Assembly (NCBI GenBank): GCA_040285855.1
Contig: JAUFOQ010000003.1
Span: 2,170,001 to 2,234,000, forward strand
Source of the DNA: Eukaryota sp. GEM-RC1
Lineage: Eukaryota
Direction of reading: 5' to 3'
Length of the DNA: 64,000 nucleotides
The position numbers and the translations under genes are program-made. The notes under the pieces were generated by a model that did no database searches, was not told where the DNA came from, and saw only the letters and a list, made by a program, of their open reading frames with translations. Positions 13,233-49,813 of this stretch are shown here, piece after piece (the stretch's first letter is position 1; every line of letters begins with the position of its first letter).

Positions 13233-16200
13233 ATGAGTTCTTTCCAGAAGGAGTCTGAAGTTTCTCACATCACTGCAAGTTTTGGACTACGTAATGTGTC
13301 TATCTTGCAAAGGGCGGAACAAAGGGATTCGCACTCTTTCGAGCAATATCATCAGATGTCTCACGCTTCAATTTCTGTGCCAACTTGTTATTACTATTGG
13401 AGATATTGCAGATTATCGGTCTCGTACTCAATCGCTACAATTTCCCGCTGTGGGACTCCCTATTTGACATGAGATTCGTTCATTGGCTTACTGTTCCACT
13501 GACCTCTAGTGAGTTTAATATTCGATTATGGTCACTGTACGTTGCTACAGTTGTCACAATTGCTGTGTTTTTCACCTCCCTCACAATATTCCTTGCTTTT
13601 GGTCAGGAACATCTGGAATACTCACTCAAACTGGTTTTTGTTAAAGCCTTGTTTCATCTCGTATGCACACTCTTTTATATACCACTAACATCCGTTATCT
13701 TATCCTTGATCTTCTGTTCTCCTCAAATTGATGACGTTTCTCTCAACTTTCGAACCCTTTTCGATGAATCAAACTGTTGGGGAATTCAGTCCATTTTAAT
13801 TCGAACTTCTCTTCTATTACTCGGAGTCTTGCTCTTCTGTTGTGTTCTCAGCTATAGCCTGTGTTGCTATGATGGTAATCCATGTTCTAAAAGACCCTTT
13901 GCTAGAGCACACTCTCATGTCCAATTCTGGTTGTTTCTCTCTAAATCTGTTCTACTTCTCATCTTCTACTTTCTTCCCTTTCGTCCTTGGCTCTTTCGAA
14001 CTGTCTATCTTTTCTGTTCTCTCTTTATTCCCTTTCTTGTTGTAACACGACTTCCCTTCTATAAATCTAATTCGAATCTCAAGTATGTCATCTTTTTTAT
14101 CACTTTGGACTGCCACATCTTTTTGCTATTTGATTAATCTTCTCTACGTCTCTAATCACGTCACTCAGTCAAATCAAGGCACTGTCGTGTTGGCCATGTG
14201 GACTTTGTTTGTTGTTTTGTTTTCAATCATTTTTTATCTGATTTGTAAGAATTCAATTAATCGTTACTACTCCCGACCCTCTTCAAAGACTCCCACCTAT
14301 GTACCCTCCTCCAATCTTCCCCAACACTCTTTGTCCGTTGGAGTGTTAGATATGGATGAATCTGATACTGATTGGTCAGAGAAGCAACTTCCCAGTATTG
14401 AAACAACCACTATGGCAGATTCTTCAATCAAACTGCCGCCAATTTATCATGTTTGGCAAGTTGAGCTCTTCACACGATTTCTTCAGCCAAAACCACTCAA
14501 AGCCTCACCAGAAGATAAAGATTTGGCATTTTTAATTTTTGATTATATTGGTGATCGATTCAGTGAACATGTAGAAACTTTGCTGTCAAAAATTAATTTT
14601 GAAATATTTATCAGAGAAAATCATTTGGCAGTGGTTGCTATCAAATCACTAATCAATGGACTTGATTGTGACCTTAATCTACGTCATCGATATCTTCTTC
14701 ACTATTACCAACTCTGTGCAGACAACTTAAGAAGACGGACAAACACCGGCACTGAAGCAGCTGATGCTAAGTCATCTATTGCACTTCAACAAAACATTCG
14801 AGAAGCAAAGGAATTACACAAGGATTGTCTTGAATGCCTCATTCAGTTCTGGAACAGTTTGGCTGTGGATAATGCTCATATAGCTAAACTGCCTTCAATT
14901 ACTGACAAACTTCGAAATTTAAAAGCGTCTGCTGATGTCATTTTTAAATCTCTATTGAGTTCTTTTCCCGATAGTCGTGAAGTTCTCTCAGTCTATGCTA
15001 AGTATATTCGTGAGATTAACATGGATGAAGAAACAGCTAAGCTAATTGAAGATTCTATTGAGATGCAATCATCAATTGGCAGTGAAGGAACAGGATCACA
15101 TGCTCCTTCTCAAGCTTTCAGTGCTGATTACTCTACTGCACTTTCCAGGGCTTCTAAGGGAGGGCGGAGAAAACGAAAAAGGAAGAGTAGATTGTCATTG
15201 GAAGTAGGAAAAGAGGACCAGTCTCATCAGCATGTTGAGAGACTTTCTAGAATTATGTTTATTTCTTTCACTTTGGTTGCTGTTGTTACTGTTATTTCCT
15301 TTGTTTTCTTTAGTAACACTCTGAATGACGTGTCCAATAGAGCTCAACAATTGATTGAGGGTAGTCATATCTTGGTTATGTCTAACAAGATAGTCGCTGA
15401 AGCTCAGCTTTACAGTCACTACTTTGAAAATGGTGACCAATTTAAGAAACAAATTCTGGAAGATTCTGAACATATTGGTATTTTTCTTTCTTTATTTTCT
15501 AATCTCAGGTTACCATGCACGAAGAGTTTTTATGGGTTCTGATTCACTTACCAAACCAAGTTCTTATATTTGTCCTAGAGTTAATGAGGCTCCCTTGAAT
15601 GAAATCCATGACGACATAATCATGGACTTCATTAGAAATCCCAGCCTGGTTTCAATGATCTATCGTAACACTAATCCCCCAGTTAGTCAGACTAAAGTTC
15701 TCAATTACTGGGAAACAGTTCTGAGTTATAGTATTGCTGCAGTTGATTTTGTCACGTCATATGATGGAGAAAATCTTTCTAGAAATAATTATTTTAATTA
15801 TTTACTTCAAAATAGAAGAACAATGATCAGAGGAGGACATGCCTTTTGGTCTAGAATTTTAGAAGCTTCTGCTGATTTCTTCTATGTCACACGTTTAATT
15901 TCTATTGTTTCCTTTGTTATTGTTTTAGGTTGCTTAATAGTTATCGGAGTGTTTGGATTTCACAGAATTATTCTTTCAATCTCTGTAGATCGACAAGGAG
16001 TTTTAAACCTTTTCCTATGGGTGCCAAAGGACACGTGTGCTCGTATTGTTTCTGACCTTCAGTCACGCTTTAAATCTTCTGGTGCAGTTCATTATGAAGA
16101 TAGTGAAAATGACTTCGATGAACTTGCCTCTAATCATTCTAATAGCGATGCTGATGAGCGTTTTCATCCAACGGATGATGCAACTGTTGCGCTAGTTATT

Positions 16201-18636
16201 GATCATGATGATCACGTTGAGCAATCAAATACTGTTGAGCTCAAAGACAAGTTTTTATTGTTAGGTTTAAGTTTTTCTATGTTTATCTTGGTGTCAGTTA
16301 TGGTAGTTGTCTTCATGAGCTATTCTTCCAATCAAGATGAGCTCTTTCTCAACATCAATGAGAATTTTGAACTTGATGTTGTGGCAGGCGATTTGATTGT
16401 CATGGATTTCATTCTCACTTCTCGAACTTTTTCTTTTATTGCTACTGGTGATCTCTTTTGGTATCAAAGTTATTGGGGCTTTGTGGAATCTGGTCGAAGG
16501 CGAGCTTTAGCTGATCACTTTTATTTTTCTTCACGTGTTTCTCCTAGTGTTAAAGATCAGCTGGCCTCCACTCATGAGTTTACTAATATTTTATCTCATT
16601 ACCATCGTGTCAGTCAATCACTTGCCAGTCAAGTATTCAATCACACTCGTGATGACGTGTCTTATGTTTATGATTATCAATATGATATTCAAAGTGAGCA
16701 ATCTATCAATTATGAACGTGTTGAATATGACGGTTACTCTAATTGGTATACTAATCACACTTACGATTCATCACTTTCCTCTTCCGGAAAATATGTTATC
16801 GCAAAAGAAACTGTGAGCTCTTCGAGATATCACAATCACCTTGATTCAATAGTCAATGTTTTGTTACAAACATCTACTCTGATACATTCTGAGTTGGATG
16901 ACGAATCAGATAGATTATTCACTAATCAACGACTTTTACTTACCGTATTTGTTATTCTTGCAGTAATGTTCTTGACTTGTACAGGAATCCTTGTAATAAA
17001 GTTCTTGAATCGTTTTCCTTCAAGTAAAGTTTCATTATTAATTTTACTTGCAGTACCAGTACTTGTATTGTTGATTATTCTGTTTTCTGGTCTTTATGCC
17101 AGAAAAGTTCTTTCTAATTGGGATGAAACTGATTCAATCACAGAGGACGTATTATCTCAAGTGTCCACGTGTAAGTTTCTGTTTGCAAAGTTGCGGTATT
17201 TGTCTGATAGATTCATTTTATCAGGCAATTTCAACACTACAGAGAGTATAGAAATGCTAGACAACAACTACTTGATTCCATTGGAGAGTTAGTATCAATG
17301 TTTTCTAAATTTGACGATTCTCCACTTGCAAGTTCCCTTTCAAAACTTCAAGATACATTCACCAATGTTTTCGATGACTTTGATAAGGTTTTCCGTGTTC
17401 AAGACATTTCCCTTGTATTAGCTTGTAGCCACTACGACATTCCTTCTTCTCTTACTCCTGAACTAGATGATATTGACTGGGATATAGCCACTGAGGAAAA
17501 CAGTCATCAGAAGATTATTCAACAGCACAGAATTCCACTGAGTCACCGTTATACCAACAAAACCTTTGACCTATCTCGATCTCCTTCTGACCAACTTCTT
17601 CTTGCTCAACATTTAACTTTGGGCAGATCCTTTCTCCCAACCCTATCTCATGCCCTTAACTACTATTTAGTGGATTCAGTAAACGAATTTGTTTCTTCTA
17701 GTGTAGCATTTCTACAGTCTCTTAGAAATCCCAGGTTAGTATTTATTTCTCAGGTGTTATTGCTTATTGCCACTTGTTTTACTGTGATTGTGATTCTATA
17801 TATTTTAATGGTTTTATCCCCCAGAAAGAAAGCTGCTTCCCATGTCAAAGAGATCGTTAAACTTGTTCTAATCAACAAGTTCCACAATCAATCAATTGTA
17901 GCTCTTATTTGCATGGCTATTGGTATCGCTGTATTCTTTATTATTGCTATTTATGCCACGTTTTCTCTCCAACCTTGGCCTGGACAACTTCAATTAGCTG
18001 GAGAACGAGCAACATTACCGTATATAATCTCAGGAAGGGTTCTGCAAGCTGCCATGAATCCCAATGCTCGAGAAGAAAGTTGTACAAGATTGATAATGAG
18101 ATCGGAACAATTACTAAATACTCACAACGAATTGCTATATCGTACAAATTCACCTTTTTGAACTCTGTTGCTGGTCGTTTTGCTCCTCACAATGAGCTTG
18201 TGTTTAACACAAATTTTAATATTTTGAGCTACAACACCACTGTTTTGCAACGATTTGGTCTCAACTTTTTGCTTCATCGCTTCGTTTCTCTTCTTACTCC
18301 CTTGATGTTACAGGAAACAGCTGTTTCTTGGGATGTTGAGTCGCCACATATTCAAGAAACAATTCAAGTTAGCCATGTTTTAGCTTCACTTTCTCTTGAT
18401 TCCATTGATCTTCTGCAAGAAGAACTTCAAGAAACTGTCAGGTTTTATAGAATCTCAATTATACTGTCAATGGTTCTAGTATTTTTGATTTCAGTTTTGA
18501 TTTATTTTTTTCTTTTCGAAAGATGTTGAACACCTTAAGAGAGGAAGAAGAAATAAGTTTGCAGTTGATTTCAATGATTCCTCAAACTATTATTGAATCC
18601 AACTCTATTATTCAACAATTTGTTGCCACCAATTAG
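13233..18636 (+). CDS. TmcB/TmcC-like multi-pass membrane protein, paralogue B; intron at 15478-15508; ~5 single-base indels
   Basis: Collinear with and in long stretches nearly identical to paralogue A. The frameshifts at ~13322, ~14095 and ~17238 are single-base differences from A in homopolymers. C-terminus 'LREEEEISLQLISMIPQTIIESNSIIQQFVATN*'. Confidence 0.7.
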
Positions 18637-22320: not shown

Positions 22321-22956
22321 TAGGGTTGGGCAAAAATCCACTCGAGTTCTACTCCAAGACTCCAAACTCCACTTCACTCCACTTCACTCCAAATTTTGAC
22401 GAGTTGGAGTCGAGTTGGAGTGAAACTTGCTATTTCATTAGCATTCCTATGTAAGTACTGTACATAACTTGCAAAAAACACCTATATAAAAAGGAGTTAC
22501 ACTGTTTGTAGTAACCGAAGATTAAAAAGAAATAAACTTATCCACGCTTCCGTTTAAAAAGGCCAAAAAGTTAAAACTATCGTCCTACTAGACCTGTTCA
22601 AACTTCTTACCAAATTCTGAACAATGTTTTTGAAATGACTTCTGAAACTGTTTTTAGTAACCACTGAAATTTTCATAAAATATTAGAAAGGTTCATTGTG
22701 ATGACATCATCACGGTGGATATCTAACAGTGTTTGCTTTAGTGTGAATCGAAACACATTGAGTGACCGTTGTGTATACCTGGAAGAAGTGCCAAAAGCGG
22801 CAAATGAGAGCAATTTTATATTAAGACAATTTAACAAGTTTGTGTCAAGAGAAGTCTACAATGGACTTGGGTTGGAGTGAAGTGAAGTTGGAGTGAAGTT
22901 CACTTTTAATATATATTGTTTGGAGTGAAGTCAAGTTGGAGTTCGCACCATCCCTA
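22321..22956. mobile_element. hAT-type MITE
   Basis: TIRs TAGGGTTGGGC / GCACCATCCCTA. Perfect 8-bp TSD GTATTGGT (22313-22320 and 22957-22964). Subterminal ACTCC/GGAGT repeats at both ends. Confidence 0.88.
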
Positions 22957-23276: not shown

Positions 23277-23473
23277 TATATGTTACCACTAAGCTAATAG
23301 CGCTATTAGCTTAGTGGTAACAAAAGGTTTGCTGGTGCCCTTCGTCGGGTCTTTCTTACGCTACCAGCTTAGCTCTACCTCCAGGAAATAGCTCACCTCT
23401 GTGTGGTCCATGTTTTAGGACATACTATTACTTGCTCGACCTCACCCGGCTATTAGCTTAGTGGTAACATATA
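23277..23473. mobile_element. Small TIR element with an extra inverted TIR copy forming a perfect 42-bp palindrome
   Basis: TATA-TGTTACCACTAAGCTAATAGC at the left end and its reverse complement at 23449-23473. 23281-23322 is a perfect palindrome. It lies in a + strand RLE fragment (LHNAVRD...KDEP at ~23170-23245). Confidence 0.7.
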
Positions 23474-24443
23474 ATTCTGGTCAAGGTGACTTAGATATTC
23501 CCCTTATTCCAGTTACAGTAGCAGTGATGTTACAGCATTAGATCGATGTGCTCAAACTTATGTTAACAGCATCTTATCACTTCAATAGGTTTGAACCACC
23601 TGGAAACAGTCGAAAAACGAAAGTAGGTCTCCAGTCCAATGATGTTGAATAAATGAAACATAAATACTTGCTCTTGGGAAGCGCAAACATAATTCGACTA
23701 TTTCATACAGAATCAGCAACAATCTTTCAATTAGAACGGGATACAGGATAAAATCACAAAATGACTTTCATCAGGTTTCATTAATATTACCAAGAATTGA
23801 AATTGCAAATGACAATTATTGTTTCACATTCTCGAGCCAGGGAATGTCAAAAATGTATTGCAAAGAGCAATAAGTGCAATTAAGAGTATCGCAGTATTAC
23901 AATAGTATATTGCAGCTTTATTTTGGAGTGCAATTTAAGCAATGATTTCAGTTTTAAACAATACTTATGATCAATATTGTTTTCCTGTTATTAAGTGGAA
24001 TTTGCATCAAAGTAATTAGTTATTGGTTGGAAGTTGGTTCTAATTGGAAGTCCTTGCTTTTTTATTTCTAACAATTGTCATTCAATCTATTCATCTTTGG
24101 ATCAGCTGTGTTTTAATCTTTTACTGGATGGGCATGAAGTCGTTTGGATTCACTGTTAGTATTATTTGTTTGTTTTTACAGTTCCATAGTTTTGTAGTAA
24201 GTTTACCTTTTTTGCTATCGATTAAAGTGCTGTTATATAACTAATAGGATGTTTATACTAACTAAAACATGACTAATACCTTATTGCAAATCTACCAAAA
24301 CTTTGATATATAAAGTTATTGATTTGACAAAACTAAGACCAATTAGGAAACAACTCGTAAACAAGCGGAAGGAAAGGAGAGATCGATAAAATCGATTCTT
24401 TCCTCCGACACATTAAGTAGGTTTAGGGATTCAAATCAATCTT

Positions 24444-27400
24444 ATGCCGCAGCTGCTCTCTCTGGATGCACTGACTAAACTTGCTCGTCAGACGGATATA
24501 CCTCCCGTTCCACCAACTTCTTCACAGTCGTCATCACATTTGTCTTTGACGTCTTCTGCAGCGTCCTCGCAAGTCAGTCTTCATTCTAAGTCTGCATCTT
24601 CCTTACAACACTCGTTTAGTGCCAGAAATACATCTCAGATCAGCTCTAATAGTGGTTCTCCTGCCAAACTATCAGCTCCACATGCTAGTACTACATCTCC
24701 TGCGCCATCCTCACAGGCTTCGCTTCATCAAAAAGCCACAGTTCCCTTACGACACTCACCCGGAACTAAACCTCCATCTCAGATGACCTCCAACACTGCC
24801 AGGTTAGTCATTCCACAAGCTAATGCTCTCACTTCTTCTTCTGTACCTTCTTCACAATCTTCTCTTCATTCTAAATCCTCGGTTTCCTTACACCACTCAC
24901 CCAGTACCAAACTTCCCTCTCAATCGCCTTCCAAGCCCGAATCAAGCTTCACTCTAGATCTTCCTAAAAATCCCTCACTTCCTAGTTCCCGTTCAAGTGT
25001 TTTGAAGAATCGGCCCAAGATCAAGGCACGTACTATTGACACTTCATCTCCTACCCAACCGCCCAATAATACCCCTGATATCAAACAAGCTTTACAATCA
25101 CTGAAAGAACCTGAAACTTTTCATCCTTTTGTTAACCAGTTTCTGCTCAATGATTCTTCTTCACTTGAACCTACTACTCCCAGATCCTCTATCCCGCGTA
25201 AAGCTGCTCCACTTGCTGCTTACTGTAGGCTTAAACCTACCAAATCTAAGAACCTCCTAATTGAACAACCTACCGATAACTCGATTTCTATTCGTGTGCC
25301 TAAAAACTCTACTGATACCACAGTCAATAATACCAAAGAGCTATGGTCTTTTCCTTTCACTTCAATTCTTGCTGATGATAACCTTGATGTTTATAAGGAA
25401 ATCGCTACCCCTGCTGTTCTAGGTCTCTTCCACAATGTTTCATCCACCTTCTTTGTTTTTGGAGGTATAGCTAGTGGTAAGACATACACTCTCTTTGGTT
25501 CTCCTACTTGTATTTCCCAAGAGTCTATTGGTCTGATTCCTTTATCTCTTCATTCCATTTTTCGAAGACTTACTGATGATCAGGAAGTTTTGCTTTCTGT
25601 GGTGGAGTTAAAAGATGACGAGGTTTATGACCTTCTGCAAACGTCATCTGATGAACATGGGAAGAAATCTCCTCGTATGCTAAATTCCTCAATTATTTGC
25701 AGTGCCAGTAGCAATCCAATGGTCACGTCAATTCCAGGACTTTCTCAGAATAAAGTGTCAAAATTACGTGAAGCTCTAGTCATGCTATCCAATGCAAATG
25801 ACTTGAGAAGAGTCGAAAGAACTAAATGGAATGATGTATCAACAAGGTCACACGTTGTTTTATCAATTCATTTAGTCTCGAAAATTCAACAAACTCATAG
25901 TAAATTATGTTTTGTTGATCTTGCTGCTCCTATTAAAGTTACTGATTTACCAAATAATCAAAGTACTTTCTTTAAAAAAATCTGTCAAAATCAATCAATC
26001 ACTTTTCTTTTTGGAAGGTGTCTTGTCTGCTGTAACAAATCAAAAGAAACACGTTCCCTACAGAAACTGTTTATTAACTTCAGTTCTTCGTTTTAACATG
26101 TCTTATTCCCCAAGATTAATCATGATTGCTTCTCTTGATCTTGACCCTGGTGCGGTGTCAGAGTCTTTGTCCACGTGTTTGTTCTTTCGTAGAATAGGTC
26201 TAGTAAAGGGACTTAAACATCAAGGAAATAAACCTAGAATGGAAAAGATTCTAGAAGGAGAGCAAGTAATGGCTCGACGAGGTTCAATTGCTCGACCACC
26301 CTTAGCTCAAAATTCTTTAGATTTATTTAAAAAGTCTACACAAGACCAAGACTCCAAGCTCTCTGAACATCAGGAATCTCTCCTTGACCAGTCCCAGTCT
26401 TCTTCTAAAGTTCATCATTCCACTTCTAGTACGATTAGTCATAAGTCTGAAAGTAGTGGCAAGACAAAGTTTACTTCAATGTTGGAAAGTGTTATCGATA
26501 ATGAGGTAGCTTATCATTCTACTGATTCTAATGAAGATGATAGGGAATCGTTATGTGGTGAGCTCCATTCTGGTGATGACAGCACTTCAATCAATGATTC
26601 CACTTTCCATCACTTGAGTGATGACAACACATCACCAATTGATTCTGACTGTCGTCACGTGAGTGAAGTTTCCATTGAAGTTGAGGATGGTTTCCAGGTC
26701 AGTACTTCAGAAGAGGAAAGTCTTGGTTATAAATCTATTGATACTGAAGCTTCACTTTCTGAAGTAGCTACTCCTGAAATTAAGAAGGAACGTGTTGTTC
26801 CTGAGTATGCAAGATTCTTTTCCTGGCAGAAACTTAAAGCCATTGTTGCTTATTCCTCAATTATTCTCTTTTCATGTTAATATTCCTTGGTTTTTCCTTT
26901 CCATCTCTATCAGATATCTTTGGTGACGTGATTTGTCCCCAATCCTTGGTCCTTGATGCTGGTACTGTACAGTATCGTGTTCGTCCTGGTGGTGGTTGGA
27001 CGCTTCATGTCGGAGATTCCAATACCCTGTTTGAGGATGAGATTTACTTTAATCAAGAGTTTACTTCAGAGCCAAATGTTTTTATTGCTATAGGTTCAAT
27101 CGAGTCGTCCCATCCGGCAAGTGTTGACGTGACATTAACACGTCGAAGCATGTCTCATTTTGAAATTAGAATTACGAGAATTCTACCAGCTTATATTAAT
27201 GAACTCACAATCACGTGGATAGCAGTCGGTCAGAATTGTATTGATGACGTGCGGTCTGTTGACTTCCGAGGAGCTCCTACTTTACAACAAATTCCCGAAG
27301 AAGAGGACCCAATTGAACCTCAGCTTGATCACGTCTCTTATTGGGACGGTCATCAACCGTTACCGTTAGAAATTGGTAGCTTCGAAAGTTTAAACTCATC

Positions 27401-30222
27401 TTTGGTCTACTTTTATTCGATATCAGCGCTTCGTTTCAGTCAAGAAACTAATTTAAATAATTTAAATATTTACAATTCTTTTCAATTAGTGAATTCGTCT
27501 GGGTCTGACGACGATCGTGTGTATTTCTATCATGGTATTCGAAGTAAGGGACTTTTAGAAGATGCTCGGTATAACTTTGTCATGTTTGAGAAAGACTTTG
27601 TTGTTTATAACAATTTTGTCTATGATGTCATCAGGTTGAGCTCAGACTCTCATGTTGATTACAATCTTGATGATTACAGTCGTTCATATCTCTCAATTAG
27701 AGCTGAGTTTTCCTCAGATTTTAACCGAATTCCAGATGTAGTTTTGTTTCTTTTGGAATATGATTGTGGTGAAACTGCTTTAAAATACTCAATTGAAATT
27801 AAATCTGTAGACTTTACTGGATTTGAATTTTCTGTGGTATCTTTAGAAGGATCTATAATTACTTTTATTTCTTTCAATTACCTTGCTTTTGATGAAGATT
27901 TTGATGTATTTGATGCTGTTGACTACTTCCTTTTACTACTGTTCTTCTTGTTTTTAATTCTTGCCTTAGCTTTTGAACATTTCAAACCTTCTTTTAAAAC
28001 AGCTCCCAATACTTCCTATGAAATGTATCACTCCTTACCTAAAGATTGGATTACTACAGAAGAAAGGAACGATGATCCTTCCCCACAGTGTCCTAATCAA
28101 GTTTTTAATAATGAGACTTGGGTGTCGATGCTTGAGCATTTTGAAGATTTGAAGAAGAATTATCGTCCTGGAACTCGAGATTTTGTAGAAATTGTCTTTT
28201 GGATGATATTTGCCATGGTTTTGTTGTTGTTCATTTTTTGTTCTACCGAGATTATATTGTTGCCAATAAGTTCTTTCATTCTTTTGGATCAATGTATGTC
28301 ACATTGTTTATTCTTGGTTTGGAACATTTTTTATTGGTCCTTGCTTTTGTTTCCAGTTAGTTGGCCAGAACATCGGTTGGTTAAGGGTTATAACGCTCAA
28401 AATAATCACGTTGCGATTTTGATTGCCAGTCATATCTCTGCAGGTCGGGATCCTGATTTAATTTTGAAAAATTCCACTAAGAATTTCTTTAGACCACCGT
28501 CTAGAGAGGATCTTGAGGAAATTCGTGAGGGGAAGTGTGATGACTTTGAAAGAACTTTACGTCTTGCTTCTTCTAGTTGTGGTATGTTTTACAAATATTT
28601 AAATCTTAACTCAAGGCGATGGGAACGTATATGTTTGTCATAATGCTAATATGAAACAACCTTACCCTAATGACAAAACAATTTCTGTAATTAAAAGGCT
28701 TAAAAAGTGGGGTAGACAAGTAAATTACGTGTTTATACCTACTGGAAACAAAACCTTTTGCTTACAGTATGTAGCCAAGAACATCCTAGCATATCGACCA
28801 GAAATCACTCATGTCGTGATTATGGATGATGACGTGCAAATCCCATCAGATATGAGTTGGCAAACTCATTTAATGGATGAACCAGATGTTGCTGGTGCCG
28901 TCATTACAATTCGTGCTGATATTAACCAACCAAAGCTGAAACATTCTTGGAGACGCCGTTCTTTACTTGTTTGGTTTCAAGATATGGAATACATGGTTTG
29001 AATCACTTTTACTTTCTAATTCCAGTTGTCAGGTTTAATGAAGCTTTGCCAATCTAACTTTGGATCTGCTGCTTATCCCCATGTTTGTTTCTCAACTTTC
29101 TTCTTATCCTAGGGTGCAATCAGTATTTGGAAGAAAGAATTGCTAGTGACAGTGCTTGATCATCATAATAGTGCTTTCCATGGAGAAGATGTTTGTTGTA
29201 TCTATTGCTGGCTAATTATAGGCTCAAATGGGATTTATTTTGCGTGAAAAGTTTAAAAAACCACCTAGATTAATTACTCTATGTGCGACTCCTGCTCTTA
29301 CTTTTCCTCCAACTGAAGTTTTCCATATTGGCGAAGATTTTTTGGTTTGTCACAAATTTTTAAAATTTTTACCGCAGGAGATCATGTTGTCGATGAAAAG
29401 AGTTTGTTTACTCAACGTGTTAAGTCTTGGGACGCGTGTGCTCACAGGTTCTTTTTTAAATATTGCGAACACATTCTACGATATTGGAATTCTGATACTT
29501 TCATTTTGAAACCCTTTTATCTTTATGAAGTTGTAACAATTATTCGTGATTATTTTCACATTTTAATTATTTTGTATTTTATTATGCTTCAAGATTACGC
29601 TCTGTTAGGTTTAGTTTATTTCAGAGTTGTTTTGATTCAATATGTTGTGTTTTTTATCTTCAATTACATTAAGTTACGTCGCAGAAAGGATCTGCAAAGT
29701 CCTTTCATAGTTGTTCTTTTGTTCCCTTTTTATCGTATGATGTTGTCAATGTTTAGAATCTTCGCCATGCTTTATAATTTATTTGAGTATTTGCCTAAGA
29801 AAAGAATGCCCACAGCTGAAGACCCCCACTTAAAGGTACCTTATTTCCATAATTATCTTTCACTTCTGAGCCATCCTGAAATGTGGCAAAAAGTGTGGGA
29901 TTTAGAAAAGATAAAACAAGGCCCTGAAGTTTTCCTTCCAGATGATCTTCCACCGATGTCCTTTAATTCTCCCATGTCTGCTGTTCCTTCTGGTATGCTT
30001 CACCGTCAAGGCAGTACTATGTTCACTAATTCGTCACATTATAGTCCTCAAAGCCCAATGTCTTCCACTTCTGAACAAGGATCTCTGCTCAATAGAAGGG
30101 CGATTTCAACAATGCATTTGAATACTGGTCACGAACAATCTGGTTTAGCTAGGACTGATTCAATGTTAACTAAGACTCGAAGTATGACCAAGTTGCTTCA
30201 TTGGGATGAATATTTAAATTAG
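24444..30222 (+). CDS. Putative kinesin motor - TM - H-type lectin - GT2 processive glycosyltransferase fusion (~1880 aa); introns 28582-28615, 28996-29025, 29083-29112, 29191-29221; 1-nt indels at ~25977, ~26870, ~29340
   Basis: Kinesin motifs GGIASGKTYT, NDVSTRSH, FVDLAAP, INQSL and HVPYRNCLLTSVL. H-lectin-like 'IYFNQEFTSEPNVFIAI...ITWIAVG' and 'EFSSDFNRIPDVVLFL...FNYLAFD'. GT2 motifs GNKT, DDD, QDMEY, HGED and QRVKSW, flanked by TM helices. There is no intergenic gap between the pieces. Confidence 0.75.
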
Positions 30223-30746: not shown

Positions 30747-31029
30747 TAGACCAGTGCGTGACTCAACTCGACTCCGTTCTACAATGTTGTAGTCGACTTC
30801 TAACTCATACTACATAGTATTTAGAGGGCTACTCGAATTGTTATCTTAATTTTGGTTATTTTCTACAATAGTAGCTGGTACTAATCATAACCTTTAGTTT
30901 AATTTCCATAGTATTTAATACTGACTTTGAGTCGACTCGCCTTCGCTTTGATATTTTCTGAGACGAATCGACTCGACTCAAGACGCTGAAGATACTTAGT
31001 CGACTATTTGAGTCGGTTGCACATGTCTA
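30747..31029. mobile_element. hAT-type MITE
   Basis: TIRs TAGACCAGTGC / GCACATGTCTA. 8-bp TSD CGTTTTAG / CGTTTTAA (7/8). Subterminal GACTC/GAGTC repeats. Confidence 0.78.
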
Positions 31030-32054: not shown

Positions 32055-32711
32055 CATAGCTTGAAATTATGAACTGAAAAAATTATTATTATTATGATTA
32101 TTATTATTATTACAAGCATAATTCCATAATATTGATAATTATAGCAATGATAGACCAAACAGAATTTTGTAATGGAAAACATCCGAAACTCATCTACATG
32201 TACGCTTACTAGTGGTAATAATGAGGTTTTTTCTTCTTCTCTGAGATCCGAATGCTCTGGAACGTTCTAACTTGCAATATATAGCAAGACACAAGACAAT
32301 AGTAGGTATGTAATTTCGAAAACTATGGGGAAAATGATTATTTGTATTATTATTATTATTATCTATATTCTAAGTTTTCATTTGTTCCATTTGCCATTTC
32401 AATTTTTGGTAATATTGGTCCAGCCGGTTTAAAGTTTTTCAGTGATTTTAGTCTTTTATGTCGTTCTAATGGCAAGGTGTTTAATAGTGCTGTATGGATT
32501 AATCGAATTATATTCGCTCTTTATAGAAGCATTCCCAAGTATTTATGTTCCATTTATTCGAAGTTGTATAGGGACAATTCTCGTGTTGATGTGGAGAATT
32601 TAACTTCTTTCATTTTCTGAATTAGTATGTATTAATTTATTGTTGCAAATAAACTATTACATTATTATTATAACAAATTGTTATGCAAAAATTATATAAT
32701 TTCAAGCTATG
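32055..32711. mobile_element. hAT-type MITE containing a nested RLE non-LTR 3' fragment (+ strand, ~32360-32655)
   Basis: Perfect 16-bp TIRs CATAGCTTGAAATTAT. Perfect 8-bp TSD GTCAAACT (32047-32054 and 32712-32719). Subterminal (ATT)n. Internal 'FVPFAISIFGNIGPAG...WINRIIF'. Confidence 0.9.
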
Positions 32712-35349: not shown

Positions 35350-38300
35350 TCAACTAAAAACATCTTCAAAATCAGGGCCAGTATCTGCTGCCTTCATCCG
35401 ACCAAGACCTCCAAATCTGGAAGGTCCAATGAAGTGAGACACGCGATGATGAGGGTCAAAGAAGGGTAAAGGTCTTCCACAAACGACATTGAAATCTTGC
35501 AAAGAAGTTACTAAATTACGACGCCCAAGCATAAAATTGAGATTCCAAAAGCCGTTAGAATCAGCCGGAATCAAGAAAAATCCCTTAAAGTCAGCAGAAA
35601 CAACAACTTCACCAACAGAAACCATTGAAGGAGCAAATCTTGAACCTTCTGTCTGAGCATAATTTAAAATATACGAAGCATCACGTTCAATTAAAGGCTT
35701 GGCCCACTCTAAACCAGAAGAATCCAAATGATAACAGCTGATAGTTACACTTCCACCAGACAAACTAACCTGCATAATCGTTGCAAATTCCGGCCAATCT
35801 CCATGAGTATTGCTCAGTTTAGCGTGTAAAACAGCGTCTAAAGGAGAGAACGATGAAGCAGTACCAGAGTGAATCCACCCCAGGGGTACTAGTGTTTCAA
35901 GAGAGGAATGCTGAGGAGAACCCAAGGGGAGGGTGACTGTTTGGTTATCAGAGAATTGAAAGGGAATGACAATAGACTTGATTTCGAAGGAATTGTCTGC
36001 TGTGGGGGATCCGTACATAAAGCCACCAACTTGTGCACGGACGTCACAAATGGAAACAAAGATCTTTAATAGATTTTGAGGAACAATAAACTTTGGTAGG
36101 TTTGATTGTGGTTGAGATGAAATAATTAAATTTTCAAATCTAGTTACAAGATTTGTACATGCTAGTGCACGCTGCCGCCAGTCCGCTCTAGACTTGAACG
36201 TCTCTTGTTCATACTTGGAAGTAGTCGTCACGACAACTTCATCACCGTGTTTGGTTACCGTCTTTGTAGTGACAGCTGACAATTCAGAGGGCATTTTACG
36301 TTCTTCATCAATTTTTTTAATTTTTTCTTCAGCAGTAGTAGGTGGAGAAATCTCCATTCCCAAGATGATGTCTCTAATTTCACTTTGAGTAAGAGAATCA
36401 ACAGATACGTTATTCTTTTGGCCAAAATCAAAAACAACCAAATCTTTTAACTTTTGCTCAACAACAATCCACTGATCAGCTGAAAGTGTTGGCCAAAGAT
36501 GTTCAGGACGTGTCTCAGTGTTGAACTGATTCAGTAAAGTCCAAGCCCTACTTGAATCAATTGACAAACACCGAAGTATCAAAATCAATCTAGAAAAGGC
36601 AGTGTACGAAGGAATTAGGTCCAGCCAATCGTCATACAAGTTATACAAAACCAACTGAGGTTCCGTGGCTGACAAAACTCTGTTACCAAGTCGTGGATGT
36701 TTCAAAAGACCAGCAAAAGGCAGTAACAGTTCACAGCCTTTCAGAGAAACATTAGGGAAATCAATTAAATGAACTTCAAGAGGATCCATCATTCCTTTTC
36801 TAGTTACCACCAAGTTCTTTGGTCGTTCTACTTCAGGAAGTGACTGGATGAGTGCACCAACTTCCTCAGCTGTTTTCCACTTAGCCACTCCTCCTAAACG
36901 TTTCTGCCCAGCCCATAGTGACGTGTGCATGACTTTGAGGTAGAGTTGTCCAATACGGGGATTGAAGAAGAAGGCAGCTCCATTAACAGGTTTGGAGACG
37001 ACGTTTCCTTCAACGGATTTCCTGATTGTGACGCGATAGACAGCGGAATCATCGACAAACCACGTGGTGTCTTTCGAGAAGAGCTCACCGTAATTAGAGG
37101 AATTTAAATATGATTGTGATGGTTCCGCATAGTACAACTGAAGAGCATTCCTAATTCTTTCCCTAAGTACAAACAAGGCTGGATCTGCCTTCATTACTCG
37201 GTCCATTCCTTGTTGAATAAGAGGTTTTAAACCAGGAATCCAATTCCCATAGGCAGAGTAGTAGTTGTAAGCAAGATCCACAGCAATGACAATACCAGTA
37301 GCTGATGGGTAGATCGAGGTAGAATCGGTGGTGTATTCTAAGAACTTGGTTCTAGCGTAACGATCAATGTCATGAGTGTCATAGTTACCCCATCGAAGTT
37401 GAACATCAATCCAATACTTTGAAGTGTGAGCTAAATCAAAGGAATCGGTAGCTCCCAAAAGAGAAGGTTTGGAAACTGGCCACTTGAAAGTAGGGATCAA
37501 GGTGACGTCAGCAGTTGATGAGTTCATTTTGTAGGACTTTCGAGGATGAATAGTTTCTTTTGCACTGCTTCAACGTCAAGTCTTTCCATTTCTCGATCTA
37601 AAATATTACAAATATCAAACACAATTGACTCATGAATTTTCTGCCACAAATGTGCTCTAAAAATTTGAACCAAAGATATTTTCAGCGTTGGAATTTTACC
37701 ATGCATAAAGATTCCAGTCAAATCTAATTGAACCTGAAACCCAATGTAAACGTCAGCACGATTGATTGTTGGTGACCACCATAGAGTAAACCTTCTATTA
37801 GGAATTTGATTAAGTCCAGCCCTTTGAGCATTAGTTAATCTCTTAAATTTCATGGCTTCCTCAAATCCAGAAGTTCTTTCCCAAAAGAGATTCTCATAGG
37901 AAGTAAAACCAGTAGCCTTAAATAAAGAATGCTCCAAGATAGTTTCAATTCCTCCTAGAGCTTGAATAACATCAGCTCTATAATTGGTTAAGTTCCACAA
38001 CCTACCATCATGCCTAGCGTTGGTCCATCCAAATGCATTAATCCTCATCAACTGATACTGCCTAAACATTGCTCGTACTCTCCAGCCCTTATCATAGGCC
38101 AATGTATGACGATCCTTTTGAAAGAGGGTGCTAATTCTAGGTACACCCCTATCCCAACTCTCTTCCATGTCTTCTAAAGTCAAAGGACGGCCTTCTTCAG
38201 CAGCTTCTTGTCTTTTCATGGCATAGCTTGTCCAAACTCTATGAGAGTCAACGATCTCAGCTTCCCAAGGAGTTATATAGCGATAGAGATTGGGAATAGC

Positions 38301-41300
38301 TTGGCCTTCTGGGTGTTGAAGACCTGCACGATAATGAGTGACTCCAGTTTTAGTTTGTTGAGACCACCTAAGATCTGCTTGAGGTATAAGTATATGGCCC
38401 ATAGAGAGCATACCGAGACCACCAAGTTCTTTAGGAGCGTAAAAGACAACAGGAGGGAATCTTGCTGGCATTTTTGAATTTAGTCCAATTTTAACACGTG
38501 TGTGAATCTTGTTTTCACATTTCACTAGTAAGTCCAGCAGTTCAGGAGTATGAACAATTGCCTCTCTATAGTAAGACACCATTCCCAAAAGAGTGGTGTT
38601 CCACTTGTTAACTACTTTAGAAAAGGTTGTACTTGATGACGTGATCAAGATCTGACGAACACGATTACTGAACCTTTCCATTCCATCAGCCGACACTCTA
38701 ACAAATCCCAGAGCAGTCTTTGCACCAGTGTTTACATCAGTTAGGGCCCAAGTGCTTTCACTACGGTTTGCCACGGCATCCTTGCCAATTCTAGCTACTG
38801 GTACTATGCGAATATCAAAGTTAGCAATCTCAAACAAAAGAGCTGGGTTATGGGTGGAAAAAACTGAAATAAATGAGTTATTCCAAGATAAAGCAACCAT
38901 AGAACTGGGAACTCGTTGTTTTAATTGCCAAAATAAAGCTTTTCCTAATGTCGTGTCATGTCTCATAAGTCTCATTCTTTCTGGTAAGGGCCACGTGGTC
39001 CTGATTGGATAGGTATCAGCAGTTTCCGAATCGTGAGAAGTTTGGTATCGTGTAACTAAATCACGTGATTTCGAAGCTGAAAAATTAAAAACCATGTAAA
39101 TTTTGTCCACGTGTCGACAGTACAGTTTCAAAGGATGACGTGCTGCTACTTCAGGATCATTCCACGATCCAAAATCATTAGGATTATCAATAGGACCAGC
39201 TAGATCAGCTGCTCTCATGGGTCCAATTAAAGCTAAATCAATAACCAAGGAATAGAACTGGAAAACAAAGGAAGCAAACTGGACTCCCTTAACAAGTCCT
39301 ACTGAATTAGTACAAGACATGTCTTTAAAAGATAAGACAACATTCATTTTGGCTGTAATGTAGTCTGCAATTGATGGATTCATGATTACTTTGAGGAGAG
39401 TGTTTAAAAGAGTTAAGTCAATGTTCTCGGCTATACGGCTCAAGTGCAGCTCAACGTGACAGGTCTGTTGACCGTCATCAGTTTCCCAAATATCTTCGAT
39501 TGAGTTGATAGATGTTGCCCATTTATGAGCGAGTATTGGACCGGGTTCAAAATCAGATGGTTTCACCCAATTAGAAAAGAGTCCACGTTTTTCAGCTTCA
39601 TACCACAGATATTGATCTAAATAGGCATCAGTGATCTTTTCTAAAGGTTCAATCTCATAAACTGGATAAACCTCTGTATAAAGATCAAAGAATTCCAATT
39701 GTATTTCTCTAAAAGTCCGTTGAGTTAGTAAATGTCGTTTAATTCTAGCAAGTGCAGTCTGAGGATCTTCATATGCTTGTTCAATCAAGCCGAGCTCTTC
39801 TCTCTGAGACCTATTCAATCTAGTCTTGACGACGTAGGCTTCTTTAAGACCTTCTAATCCCAACATTAGCAACTTGTTATCATGTTTGTAATTCAATGGG
39901 GGGGAAAGGAATGGCGGCAAACTGTCTACTCTCAAGCCACTTTACTAGAGAAGTGTAAATAGAAATTCCCTGATCAATTGAAAGATACGGTCCCTCCTTT
40001 AGATACAAATTCTGTCTTGTCTGCTCATCTTTCAACCAAAGTCTAGACAATCTTCCTAAATTCTTCTTGGCTGCAACTCTATCAATAGCAGCTCCTTTCT
40101 TAATGCGTTCTCTTATCAAATGAGCACTCTGAGTCCACCAATCAGCCTTCATCTTGACATAGCGGAGGATTAACTCTTCTACTGGAGGAGGCATTCCAGG
40201 AACTTTCCAAGGTAAGTTAGCTTTCCAACAACGCCAGGCTTCACCCAAGTGAGCAATAATTCTCTTGGCAACTCCTTGGTAGGCTGTACCTGAAGGCATA
40301 ATATCCAGAACGTCTTGCATCACTTGAGCACGTAACTCAAGGTCATAATTACTTTCAATTCTCTGTTTTGTGACTGTTTTTGAGCTACTCATCTGAGCTC
40401 TACCTTCAAACTGACGAGCAAGCATATTCCCTAACCATCCCTCAATCAAAGGTAACAAACCACGCATAAAGAACATCCACACCCTCCAGGAAGGAAGCCA
40501 GAATCCACATCCAGGTCCAGGAGATAGAGGAGGGGTATCAAATCTATGGGTGTAGATAGCAGAGAGATCGTTACACATCCTAATCTGATGCATTAACTTG
40601 TACTTATAACGGTACATTCCAGTCAAATGTCCCATGTGAGTGAAAAGATATTGAAGACCATCAGCTAGTTGAAAGGAGTCAATGTTACCAATACGGAATT
40701 GGACATGAATATCAACGACTAATTTAATAAATTTTAAAATTTCTCGGACTAAGTGAAAAGCATTTCCAAAACGTGACTTCTTACGTTCTTTTGTAGTTAG
40801 AGTCTTCACGGGTTTTAGAGTAAAATTATAATCTAAATGTAGAAACGTTAGGTTTTTTCTGTGAATCAGTAACGTCAGCATGTTGTGACCTTGACGACAC
40901 AACTGTAGACCTGCTTCAACCCAGTCTACAGTCGTGGTTTCCAAAAATTTAGTTTTCAAAAAAGCACCGACAACGTCTCTTTTAGCAGCTTTTCGAGGCT
41001 CTGCACCACTTTCCTTTCTCTCAGCTTCTTTCTTTTCCCAAGACTTCTCTTGACTTCATCCTTGAGCAGTTTTTGATAGGCAACTCGTAATCGAGGCTCA
41101 GACATTGGAGGAGCTCGATGATGATACCACGACTTCATCACGTCAACATCTAATCCTCTTCTGGTAGGTCCATTACGTTGATTGAAAGGGAAAGGCGCGT
41201 GTAGAAGAGACAGGGAAGCAGATGAGAACTCAGGATTGAGTGGAACATTGGCAAAGAGGGGTCTAAGTTCAACACGTGTGGTGTGGTGATGATCCCCATC

Positions 41301-42254
41301 ATTTTTGATTGAACTAGGAGGAATAGGAAACAAATCACTCCTCCAAGTAAAAGCAGGTGAATCCCGATCAAGATCCTCAATGTCAAGAGGTTTACTTAGA
41401 CAAGTAGGATAATGATAAATTGGAAAAGCAATAGAAGAAGTTCCTGAATGGTAAACATAAGGAAAAGCTATTCTATACTCTGTCCTAATACCACTACGTA
41501 GAACGATCTTATGAACATCGTTAAACTCATCAACTGAAGAAGAAGTTATTTGAGGATGAGAATGATCTGGTTCGAACTTGGGACCCCCAGGGATAGCCAC
41601 ATTAAGAGACTTTGGAAACGTAGAAAGAGTGGTGATCGAAGAGGTAGTTAGTGTTGAGATCGTGAGATTGTAGGAGGATGGGAGAAGAGAGACGGTAGAG
41701 GGAGGAGAGGATTGAGATTGGCAGCCTCCACTGTTTATAGGAAGGACCATTGACTATCCTTTGGTCTTCAATCAGAGGCATATGTTCAAAGAGCCATGCA
41801 TAGACCAATTCGTCCTCTTCTTCGTCAAGGGGAAGTTCAATTGGAGAAGGATCAGGGAGATGTAAGATGTTTTCACCATAGTCTAGAGGTGGTTCTTCGT
41901 CATCAAAGGGGGGAAACTTGACTCTACGGAAGTTTTTACGTTCCCGTTTCTCTCTACGCATTGCCAGCCAAGAACATGACCACTGAGCATAGAAGATTGG
42001 TTCAATTACTCTAGGAATTTCATCAACAACTGTGAGTGCTCCAGTAGTATGATAAGCAACTTTAACTAAGCGACGAGCTTCCCAAGGCATAGGCATAGAT
42101 TCAAGGAGTTTGTAAGCAGCAAAGGGATATATTTGAGAGCACCAAGATAAGCTCGGCGGTCAGAAACGAATTTACGATCACTCATATCTCCATGATCTTG
42201 AAAGATTTTTCGGAGATGCTCAGGAGGCATCGGCAATTTAGTTTGATGAGACAT
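35350..42254 (-). CDS. PRP8: Pre-mRNA splicing factor Prp8 (U5 snRNP), split by ~5 single-base indels
   Basis: Collinear conserved blocks: [73 protein letters not shown]-like [11 protein letters not shown]-terminal Jab1/MPN 'LGWIHS'. Breaks at ~42121, ~41612, ~41040, ~39900 and ~37558. Confidence 0.97.
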
Positions 42255-49100: not shown

Positions 49101-49675
49101 TGTTTGGTCTTTTCAGCAAAGGTAGAGGCTACAATGAAATCCAGAGGTTCAGGTAATGAAGAGTTGACAAAGTGTTGATCTCCTTCAGAGAGAGAAAGAC
49201 CGTAGTTAAGGGGTAGGTCTTTGGGGCTGTTTTTGATGGAGAGAATATCCTCATCAAGTGAAACTGAGCCTGTGATGACAGCACGGTTACCACCAGGAGG
49301 GATGAGTTTGAGGTAAGCGGTGACAAGGGAGTGGAAGAAGGTGGTTTGTTGGGATTCAGTGGACAACACTACTCGATTCCAATAGCCATCTTTACAAACA
49401 ACAGTGATACCGAATCCTGAGAGACCTTTGGACGCTTCTTTATGTACGGTTTCAGGGAGTCGTTCTTGTGGCGAATCAGAAGCGATTGTTATCAAGCTGG
49501 ACAATGGAAGAGACTGACGCAGGTCCTGCTTAGTTCCAGACACCTTAATGACATAGAGAGTGGTTGGGGTTACAGCAAGAATGCGTTCACCAACAACCCT
49601 CTTTTTGACTTTTTGGCATGAGCAGTGGGATAGAACCAACTCAACGGGTTCCGGAAGTTGACAGGAGATGGACAT
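46164..49675 (-). CDS. CARMIL-like protein: three tandem PH-like repeats followed by leucine-rich repeats; indel at ~46950
   Basis: Three internal repeats 'G.R(I/L)L.(V/L)(T/S)...LYV(I/V)K...LRQ...EAS.G..G.G...DGYW.R'. LRRs such as 'LNFLSLSNCNV' and 'LRFIDLSHNSF'. Confidence 0.6.
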
Positions 49676-49813
49676 TTTTCGAAGTCAAAAAATGATTCAG
49701 TGCATTTTTTTAGCTGTTATTTACGTCATCACAAGTTAAGTGTTACCAGTGCATGTACATCTTTAAATCATTCATAATAAAAGCTGTCAACATCATTGAG
49801 AAGTACGTAGCCA

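What the first reader, a model, noticed from the sequence alone, without database searches (positions are those of the whole stretch)
24444..30222. Kinesin motor fused to H-type lectin domains and a processive GT2 polysaccharide synthase
Seen: six ORF pieces abut with no intergenic gap. Four GT-AG mini-introns and three 1-nt homopolymer corrections (A7 at 25974-25980, T4 at 26869-26872, T6 at 29338-29343) give one 5655-nt frame of about 1884 aa. The kinesin/lectin junction falls inside one continuous hydrophobic helix (AIVAYSSIILF|FMLIFLGFSF), which argues for fusion. Domain order: Ser/Pro-rich N-terminus, kinesin motor, acidic linker, TM, at least two H-type-lectin-like domains, about three TMs, GT2 domain (DDD, QDMEY, GED, QRVKSW as a QxxRW variant), further TMs. 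Known: fungal class V/VII chitin synthases carry myosin motors. H-type lectins such as Helix agglutinin and discoidin bind GalNAc/Gal. Giardia cyst walls contain a beta-1,3-GalNAc polymer. I know of no described kinesin-lectin-synthase fusion. Inference: a microtubule-tethered or microtubule-guided synthase that holds its own nascent glycan on the outer face, and a candidate cyst-wall or surface-coat synthase.
Basis: partly seen in the sequence, partly recalled or inferred. Interest (0 to 1): 0.92.

Follow-up and report, generated by a model that had tools for sequence, protein, structure and literature searches.

The report
Kinesin-anchored lectin–glycan synthase of skoliomonads
One gene of an anaerobic flagellate joins a kinesin head, three lectin-like domains and a predicted membrane sugar-polymer synthase; the head carries a change that locks other kinesins onto microtubules, so it likely pins glycan synthesis to the cytoskeleton rather than carrying it along.

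Summary
The fusion is real. Four database proteins from three Skoliomonas species carry kinesin, H-type lectin and GT2 domains in one chain. The window's breaks match the error rate in its PRP8 gene (5 in 5.6 kb against 5 in 6.9 kb). The GT2 keeps its catalytic motifs, folds most like hyaluronan synthase and belongs to an apparently uncharacterised protist clade. Two points change the reading. Switch II has Gly to Ala in 5 of 5 genes, the equivalent of the rigor mutation G234A, so the head is likely a microtubule anchor rather than a motor. The three lectin domains are predicted to form a single-chain pseudo-trimer but lack the pocket tryptophan, so glycan holding is doubtful. The same core also occurs with an Hsp70-like domain, with an ectodomain, or with no extra module (also in Barthelona). 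Product sugar, expression and any cyst role are untested, and no Giardia homologue was found. It works like fungal myosin–chitin synthases but is not one. No earlier finding of this scan matched.

The parts
24444..30222 (+). Whole gene: kinesin head - acidic linker - TM1 - three H-type lectin domains - TM2-4 - GT2 - C-terminal TMs; 1873 aa after 5 introns and 5 one-base breaks
   Evidence: 87% identical to P0001, 50% to P0002, 47% to P0003
24444..25208 (+). Ser/Pro-rich N-terminus; first 15 residues resemble those of P0002, P0003 and P0019, which supports this ATG; contains a 112-nt internal duplication
25209..26214 (+). Kinesin motor domain, best solved match kinesin-9; P-loop 25461-25484 intact, switch I 25830-25853 slightly changed, switch II 25917-25934 DLAAPI instead of DLAGSE
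25974..25980 (+). Break 1: A7 run, one base too many
26215..26829 (+). Acidic, poorly conserved linker in one open frame with the end of the motor; no coiled coil in a crude heptad scan
26830..26909 (+). TM1, containing break 2 (T4 at 26869-26872); uninterrupted in 4 of 4 kinesin-fusion homologues
26955..27263 (+). H-type lectin domain 1 (pocket Trp absent)
27264..27611 (+). Degenerate middle H-type-like domain; not detectable by sequence in this copy, inferred from the model and from P0008/P0018/P0021
27612..27899 (+). H-type lectin domain 3 (pocket Trp absent)
27918..28351 (+). TM2 (27918-27974), cytosolic loop, TM3 (28182-28238), TM4 (28295-28351); breaks 3 (T6, 28234-28239) and 4 (near 28350-28355) bracket TM4
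28374..29460 (+). GT2 catalytic domain: GNKT 28744, DDD 28825, QDMEY 28978, HGA 29080, GED 29182, QRVKSW 29413
28582..28615 (+). Intron 1, 34 nt
28996..29025 (+). Intron 2, 30 nt
29083..29112 (+). Intron 3, 30 nt
29191..29221 (+). Intron 4, 31 nt
29338..29343 (+). Break 5: T6 run, one base short
29345..29377 (+).
29530..29760 (+). Three further hydrophobic helices
29806..30222 (+). C-terminal tail and stop

Best explanation
This is one gene, broken here likely by assembly errors, for a predicted polytopic membrane polysaccharide synthase whose kinesin head likely clamps it to microtubules without walking. Steps: (1) Shown by sequence: kinesin, lectin and GT2 domains are in one chain in four homologues. 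(2) Inferred from hydropathy: TM1 puts the head in the cytosol and the lectin block outside or in a vesicle lumen; TM2-4 return the chain so the GT2 faces the cytosol on the same side as the head. (3) Inferred from motifs and fold: the GT2 takes a cytosolic nucleotide sugar, extends a chain and passes it through its own TM helices, as hyaluronan and chitin synthases do; a UDP-HexNAc donor is my guess. (4) Inferred from the switch II Gly-to-Ala change, the kept P-loop and microtubule-binding surface, and the missing neck coil: the head binds microtubules in a rigor-like state and fixes where the glycan is laid down, on synthase vesicles or at membrane over microtubular roots (cytopharynx, groove, or cyst wall and plug). 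(5) Predicted: the three lectin domains form a single-chain pseudo-trimer that in this lineage serves mainly as an outer scaffold, having lost the canonical Gal/GalNAc pocket Trp.
For: Fusion: 3 of 6 hits and 4 of 13 carry Kinesin+H_lectin+GT2 (P0001, P0002, P0003, P0019; three species); TM1 is gap-free in 4 of 4. Errors: PRP8 in the same window needs 5 frame switches in 6899 nt with no intron at the junctions; rates do not differ (p 0.76). Constraint across species: motor 50-52%, GT2 core 72-74%, linker 19-23% identity. GT2: best fold match Chlorella virus hyaluronan synthase, E 4e-8, TM 0.53, then Xenopus HAS1 and chitin synthases; DDD, QxxEY, HGA, GED conserved across BaSk and metagenome relatives. 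Head: DLAA in 5 of 5 genes against DLAGSE in every solved kinesin alignment shown; G234A and E236A kinesins bind microtubules but neither move nor release (PMC2172855 passages; PMC12005725 passages). Precedent: the myosin of fungal Mcs1 tethers vesicles and shows no motility (PMC3252574 abstract). Lectin block: three beta-sandwiches, pTM 0.72; whole-region matches are single-chain trimers (Z 8.4, 7.8, a range that may mean only a common arrangement) and single domains match discoidin I and Helix agglutinin at rmsd 1.9.
Against: No reads, transcripts or protein data; the homologues are gene predictions whose exon structure I could not see, and P0001 is probably a paralogue in the same assembly as this locus. 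The GT2 model is low in confidence (mean pLDDT 52). PF13641 scores 26.3 bits in P0001, under its cut-off of 27. The QxxRW motif is QRVKSW, one residue longer. G234A behaviour is taken from animal kinesin-1 and -2; mouse Kif9, of the likely parent family, showed no microtubule affinity in one in vitro study (PMC11513245). P0019 keeps the switch II Glu. A sister group carries a degenerate Hsp70 ATPase domain at the same place, which shows that the slot need not bind microtubules. Nothing tested bears on the donor sugar or the life stage.
Confidence: 0.6

Rival explanations
1. The head is a slow but working motor; synthase dimers supply two heads and move the enzyme or its vesicle along microtubules.
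For: P-loop intact in 5 of 5 and motor conserved at 50-52% across species; P0019 keeps the switch II Glu; chitin synthases are dimers (PMC12653383 passages); some kinesin-9 motors are slow movers (PMC11385561, search listing only).
Against: Switch II Gly replaced in 5 of 5 and Glu lost or changed in 4 of 5; a 170-200 residue acidic linker without coiled coil would not coordinate two heads.
Confidence: 0.13
2. The head no longer works on microtubules; like the Hsp70-type domain of the sister group it is a nucleotide-sensing or protein-docking module that regulates or sorts the synthase.
For: Two unrelated, degenerate ATPase folds occupy the same slot in sister clades (support 100/99); mouse Kif9 head did not bind microtubules in vitro.
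Against: The helix 4, loop 12 and helix 5 stretch, the microtubule face by established knowledge, is among the best-kept parts of the head.
Confidence: 0.14
3. The GT2 is not a polymer synthase but makes a short oligosaccharide or glycolipid (NodC-like or single transfer), still tethered by the head.
For: Weak NodC hits in 3 of 6 members (best E 0.0015); non-standard QRxxSW motif; only about three hydrophobic helices after the catalytic domain; TM helices of the model are poorly resolved.
Against: The top Foldseek ranks are all polymer synthases and cover about 490 columns including the TM part; single-transfer GT2s rank lower; an outer lectin block in the ancestral form fits an exported chain.
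Confidence: 0.08
4. This copy is a decaying duplicate, or two overlapping genes; only its paralogue is functional.
For: Five breaks as assembled; a close paralogue exists (P0001, 87%); no reads were available.
Against: No in-frame stop after correction, all motifs intact, near-zero terminal branch; same break rate as PRP8; 4 of 5 breaks sit in runs of four or more equal bases. Even if true, the architecture stands in the homologues.
Confidence: 0.05

Closest known systems
Fungal class V/VII chitin synthases with myosin motor-like domain (Ustilago Mcs1, Aspergillus CsmA/CsmB); also lophotrochozoan myosin-chitin synthases
   Same: Cytoskeletal motor domain fused N-terminally to a membrane GT2, with an extracellular domain between; the motor tethers rather than moves.
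   Different: Kinesin and microtubules instead of myosin and actin; H-type lectin block instead of cytochrome-b5-like domain; GT2 lacks EDRxL and QRRRW and had no Chitin_synth hit.
Hyaluronan synthases (Chlorella virus HAS, Xenopus HAS1) and the HAS/chitin synthase/NodC branch of GT2
   Same: Best fold match, TM 0.53 over about 490 columns; DDD, QxxEY and ED motifs in the same order.
   Different: 12-15% identity; QRVKSW motif; no sequence-level PDB hit; large fused modules; donor unknown.
Kinesin-9 (Chlamydomonas central-pair kinesin 7n61_0X, KIF9)
   Same: Best solved-structure sequence match for 3 of 3 queries, with shared loop signatures.
   Different: Switch II changed, no coiled-coil stalk, integral membrane; margins over other kinesin families are small and no tree was built.
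H-type lectins (Helix pomatia agglutinin, discoidins, SLL-2)
   Same: PF09458 above cut-off; domain fold rmsd 1.9; three-fold assembly predicted.
   Different: Three domains in one chain rather than a homotrimer; pocket Trp lost in kinesin and Hsp70 fusions.
Giardia cyst wall synthase (beta-1,3-GalNAc polymer)
   Same: Sister lineage; an orphan UDP-GalNAc synthase activity working in vesicles (PMC2924369 and PMC13315228 passages).
   Different: Gene not identified in those texts, so no sequence comparison is possible; no fornicate homologue among my hits.

Membership tests
Kinesin motor | PF00225 above curated cut-off | tested here: met
   122 and 49 bits on two pieces; 179-208 bits in four homologues
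Kinesin motor | P-loop GxxxxGK[TS] | tested here: met
   5 of 5
Kinesin motor | Switch I NxxSSRSH | tested here: inconclusive
   STRSH in 3 of 5, STRGH in 2 of 5
Kinesin motor | Switch II DLAGSE | tested here: not met
   DLAAPI x2, DLAAFD x2, DLAAFE x1
Kinesin motor | Neck coiled coil for dimer walking | tested here: not met
   crude heptad scan, none in the window model, P0001, P0002, P0003; P0019 not scanned
Kinesin motor | Microtubule-stimulated ATPase and motility | not testable with these tools
   needs protein
Kinesin-9 | Clade membership in a motor-domain tree | tested here: inconclusive
   best PDB hit in 3 of 3 searches; no tree, no reference set held
H-type lectin | PF09458 and beta-sandwich fold | tested here: met
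   2 stretches, 68 bits; fold matches; 3 stretches in P0008, P0018, P0021
H-type lectin | Three-fold assembly with pockets between domains | tested here: inconclusive
   predicted single-chain pseudo-trimer, pTM 0.72; model only
H-type lectin | Pocket tryptophan (the TW motif seen in Helix agglutinin; needed in discoidins; their equivalence is recalled) | tested here: not met
   0 of 5 kinesin fusions, 0 of 3 Hsp70 fusions, 4 of 4 plain forms
Processive GT2 synthase | DxD, QxxEY and ED catalytic motifs | tested here: met
Processive GT2 synthase | Literal QxxRW | tested here: not met
   QRVKSW, one residue longer than the archaeal comparison L002; shared by the whole clade
Processive GT2 synthase | GT-A fold coupled to a TM channel | tested here: inconclusive
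   TM 0.53 to HAS, model pLDDT 52
Chitin synthase (incl. class V/VII) | EDRxL and QRRRW signature | tested here: not met
   GEDAQM and QRVKSW; signature
Chitin synthase (incl. class V/VII) | Myosin head PF00063 or Chitin_synth domains | tested here: not met
   no such hit in 13 long homologues
Giardia cyst wall synthase | UDP-GalNAc specificity, beta-1,3 product, induction at encystation | not testable with these tools
   gene not identified in the texts read

The most novel reading that the evidence does not exclude
Skoliomonads built an integral-membrane rigor kinesin: a flagellar kinesin-9 head naturally fixed in the G234A state that bolts a member of an undescribed protist-wide polysaccharide synthase clade to microtubules. 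It is the microtubule counterpart of fungal myosin-chitin synthases, one of a set of synthases with swappable targeting heads (kinesin, Hsp70-like, ectodomain, none) that pattern the cell coat or the double-walled, plugged cyst.
Probability: 0.45. Interest if true: 0.9.

Novelty: new variant of a known kind. Interest (0 to 1): 0.78.

Why it matters
Motor-synthase fusions are described for myosin; a kinesin version would show the same solution reached independently on microtubules, with a natural copy of a textbook rigor mutation kept across three species. It also exposes a GT2 clade found across protists that seems to have no characterised member, and gives named candidate genes for the unusual skoliomonad cyst wall. 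A profile of this clade makes a direct test possible of whether fornicates, whose GalNAc cyst-wall synthase gene is unidentified in the texts read, hold a relative.

Tried and rejected
No read evidence and no whole genome were available, so the breaks are judged by homology and the PRP8 control. The 1.84-billion-protein profile search never ran, and the VIA-align search of the GT2 model never ran, so distant GT2 relatives and fornicate homologues are under-sampled. Profile A1 found no relative in viral contigs (0 of 51 pattern matches), genome contigs (0 of 240) or metagenome contigs (0 of 598). The broader A3 found two ordinary archaeal GT2s (2 of 82) and 18 of 226 metagenome loci. Sequence search of the PDB with the GT2 profiles gave no glycosyltransferase. 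A profile of lectin repeats 1 and 3 did not detect the middle repeat of this copy (-0.7 bits, shuffles up to 9.3; P0008 21.6). The Atlas gave generic GT2 and kinesin clusters only. No complex was predicted. Literature: 0 papers held kinesin + glycosyltransferase + H-type lectin + fusion; searches listed nothing on this architecture; the skoliomonad genome paper has no 'kinesin' or 'glycosyltransferase' in its main text or 'kinesin' in 6 supplements, one scanned file unread; a kinesin architecture survey has no 'transmembrane', 'glycosyl' or 'lectin'. Subscription journals are not covered. Three look-ups in earlier scan notes gave nothing related.
Full report
Observation. The region 24444-30222 holds overlapping ORF pieces on the + strand with no intergenic gap. 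Pfam places a kinesin motor across the first two pieces and two H-type lectin stretches in the third.

Corrected gene model. Homologues show two additions. A stop-free 33-nt GT-AG intron at 29345-29377 removes 11 residues absent from all six aligned homologues. The model is then 1873 aa with 5 introns and 5 breaks. A public 1064-aa model, P0022, matches the window letter for letter in 1062 of 1064 residues; it splices all five introns, starts inside the motor and bridges the T4 break with a 35-nt intron, so this locus is annotated only as a fragment.

Are the breaks errors? No reads could be laid. As a control, PRP8 in the same window (35356-42254, minus strand) needs 5 frame switches in 6899 nt, none at an intron, and TIP49 and a phosphomutase are broken too. 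Five breaks in 5622 nt do not differ from that rate (p 0.76). Public skoliomonad genomes are nanopore assemblies corrected with short reads (PMC11316075 passages), which fits such errors.

The fusion. The C-terminal piece found 6 proteins among 1610 candidates, 3 with Kinesin+H_lectin+GT2. A GT2 profile found 13 among 4945 long candidates, 4 with that architecture: P0001 (GEM-RC1), P0002 and P0003 (TZLM1-RC, Skoliomonas litria) and P0019 (TZLM3-RCL). TM1, where the window's frame breaks, is continuous in 4 of 4. These are gene predictions, and P0001 lies on a contig of the same length as P0022's, so it is probably a paralogue rather than an independent assembly; the other three come from two other species.

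A family with swappable heads. The lectin-GT2 core also occurs with an Hsp70-type ATPase domain (P0004, P0023, P0024; its phosphate motifs are changed), with a signal peptide and ectodomain (P0005, P0006, P0009), and with only an N-terminal anchor (P0008, P0018, P0021, and Barthelona P0020). In a GT2 tree of 20 rows the kinesin and Hsp70 forms are sisters (100/99) and the kinesin forms group at 86/89, below the starred level. The plain form is therefore likely ancestral for barthelonids and skoliomonads, and the kinesin was likely gained once in Skoliomonas.

The GT2. It keeps GNKT, DDD, QxxEY, HGA, GED and QRVKSW. An AlphaFold model of the P0002 region is weak (pLDDT 52) but its top Foldseek matches are hyaluronan synthases (E 4e-8, TM 0.53), then chitin and cellulose synthases; the Atlas agrees on GT2. 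It lacks the chitin synthase signatures EDRxL and QRRRW (PMC12653383 passages). Relatives with the same motifs occur in P0011-P0013 and in 18 metagenome loci, one beside tubulin genes; 16 ORFs from 13 of these 18 loci, many partial, had no kinesin or lectin hit. The BaSk proteins form one branch (SH-aLRT 98) within this apparently eukaryotic clade. I found no characterised member. The donor sugar cannot be read from these data.

The kinesin head. Its best solved match is kinesin-9 in 3 of 3 searches, by small margins. It is conserved at 50-52% across species against 19-23% for the linker. The P-loop and the microtubule face are kept, but switch II reads DLAA in 5 of 5 genes, and the Glu two places on is Ile, Asp or Glu. 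In animal kinesins G234A and E236A give rigor heads that bind microtubules and neither move nor release (PMC2172855 passages); G234A sheds ADP fast (bioRxiv 2024.09.19.613825 passages) and E236A nearly abolishes hydrolysis (PMC12005725 passages). No coiled coil follows the head in the four sequences scanned. An anchor is the likeliest role. Against it, mouse Kif9 showed no microtubule affinity in vitro (PMC11513245, whole text).

The lectin block. The model shows three beta-sandwiches (pLDDT 70.5, pTM 0.72). Single domains match discoidin I and Helix agglutinin; the whole matches single-chain trimers at middling Z. H-type pockets lie between domains of a trimer and need a Trp (bioRxiv 2026.06.18.733164 passages). 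The TW motif aligned to Helix agglutinin is present in 4 of 4 plain forms and in none of the 5 kinesin or 3 Hsp70 fusions. The ancestral synthase likely bound Gal/GalNAc-type sugar outside; this copy may not.

Topology and mechanism. Hydropathy gives TM1, the lectin block, TM2-4, the GT2 and about three more helices, which places head and catalytic domain in the cytosol and the lectins outside. The inferred mechanism is a synthase held on microtubules while it exports a glycan. This parallels fungal Mcs1, whose myosin tethers vesicles without moving (PMC3252574 abstract), and the repeated myosin-chitin synthase fusions (PMC3942024 passages). Skoliomonas has robust cytopharynx walls and, in one of four isolates, double-walled plugged cysts (PMC11603281 passages); either is a plausible site. 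The Giardia link is open: its synthase is not molecularly identified in the texts read, and none of my hits was labelled as a fornicate.

Verdict. The gene and architecture are real (about 0.95). I found no description in ten literature searches of the open library, of which targeted it. It works like a motor-fused chitin synthase but is not a member of that family. New variant of a known kind; interest 0.78.

Noticed in passing
window 35356-42254 (-): PRP8 in six pieces joined by five one-base breaks; TIP49 (about 43540) and a phosphoglucomutase/phosphomannomutase (about 55370) are broken likewise. Gene models from this assembly are likely often fragmented.
   Followed up: yes
window 1-5072 (-) and 13299-18370 (+): Inverted duplicate of a large multi-TM gene with a TmcB TPR domain, 87.7% identical over 5.1 kb, both copies in pieces.
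   Followed up: partly
P0004, P0023, P0024: Hsp70-type ATPase domain with changed phosphate motifs fused to the same lectin-GT2 core; a second unusual architecture worth its own study.
   Followed up: partly
L003-L020, P0011-P0017: GT2 clade with a QRVKSW-type motif across microbial eukaryote metagenomes; some members have long N-terminal regions without Pfam hits (L008, L010, L012, L013, L020).
   Followed up: partly
window 23277-23473: Perfect 42-nt palindrome at 23281-23322 and a further copy of one arm at 23449-23473, upstream of the gene.
   Followed up: no
window 23647-23811 and 32388-32559: Degenerate inverted copies of one element flank the gene on both sides; short ORFs there look like mobile-element remnants by recall but have no Pfam hit.
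   Followed up: partly
window 22405-22945 and 30755-31010: Short GAGTC/GACTC-rich repeats on both sides of the gene, in opposite sense.
   Followed up: no
window 46940-49684 (-): 915-aa frame with weak Myosin_TH1 and hSac2 hits below cut-off.
   Followed up: no
P0001: Its model lacks 12 residues where the window has an intron-like GT-AG string at 28767, so it probably bridges a break of its own with a false intron.
   Followed up: partly
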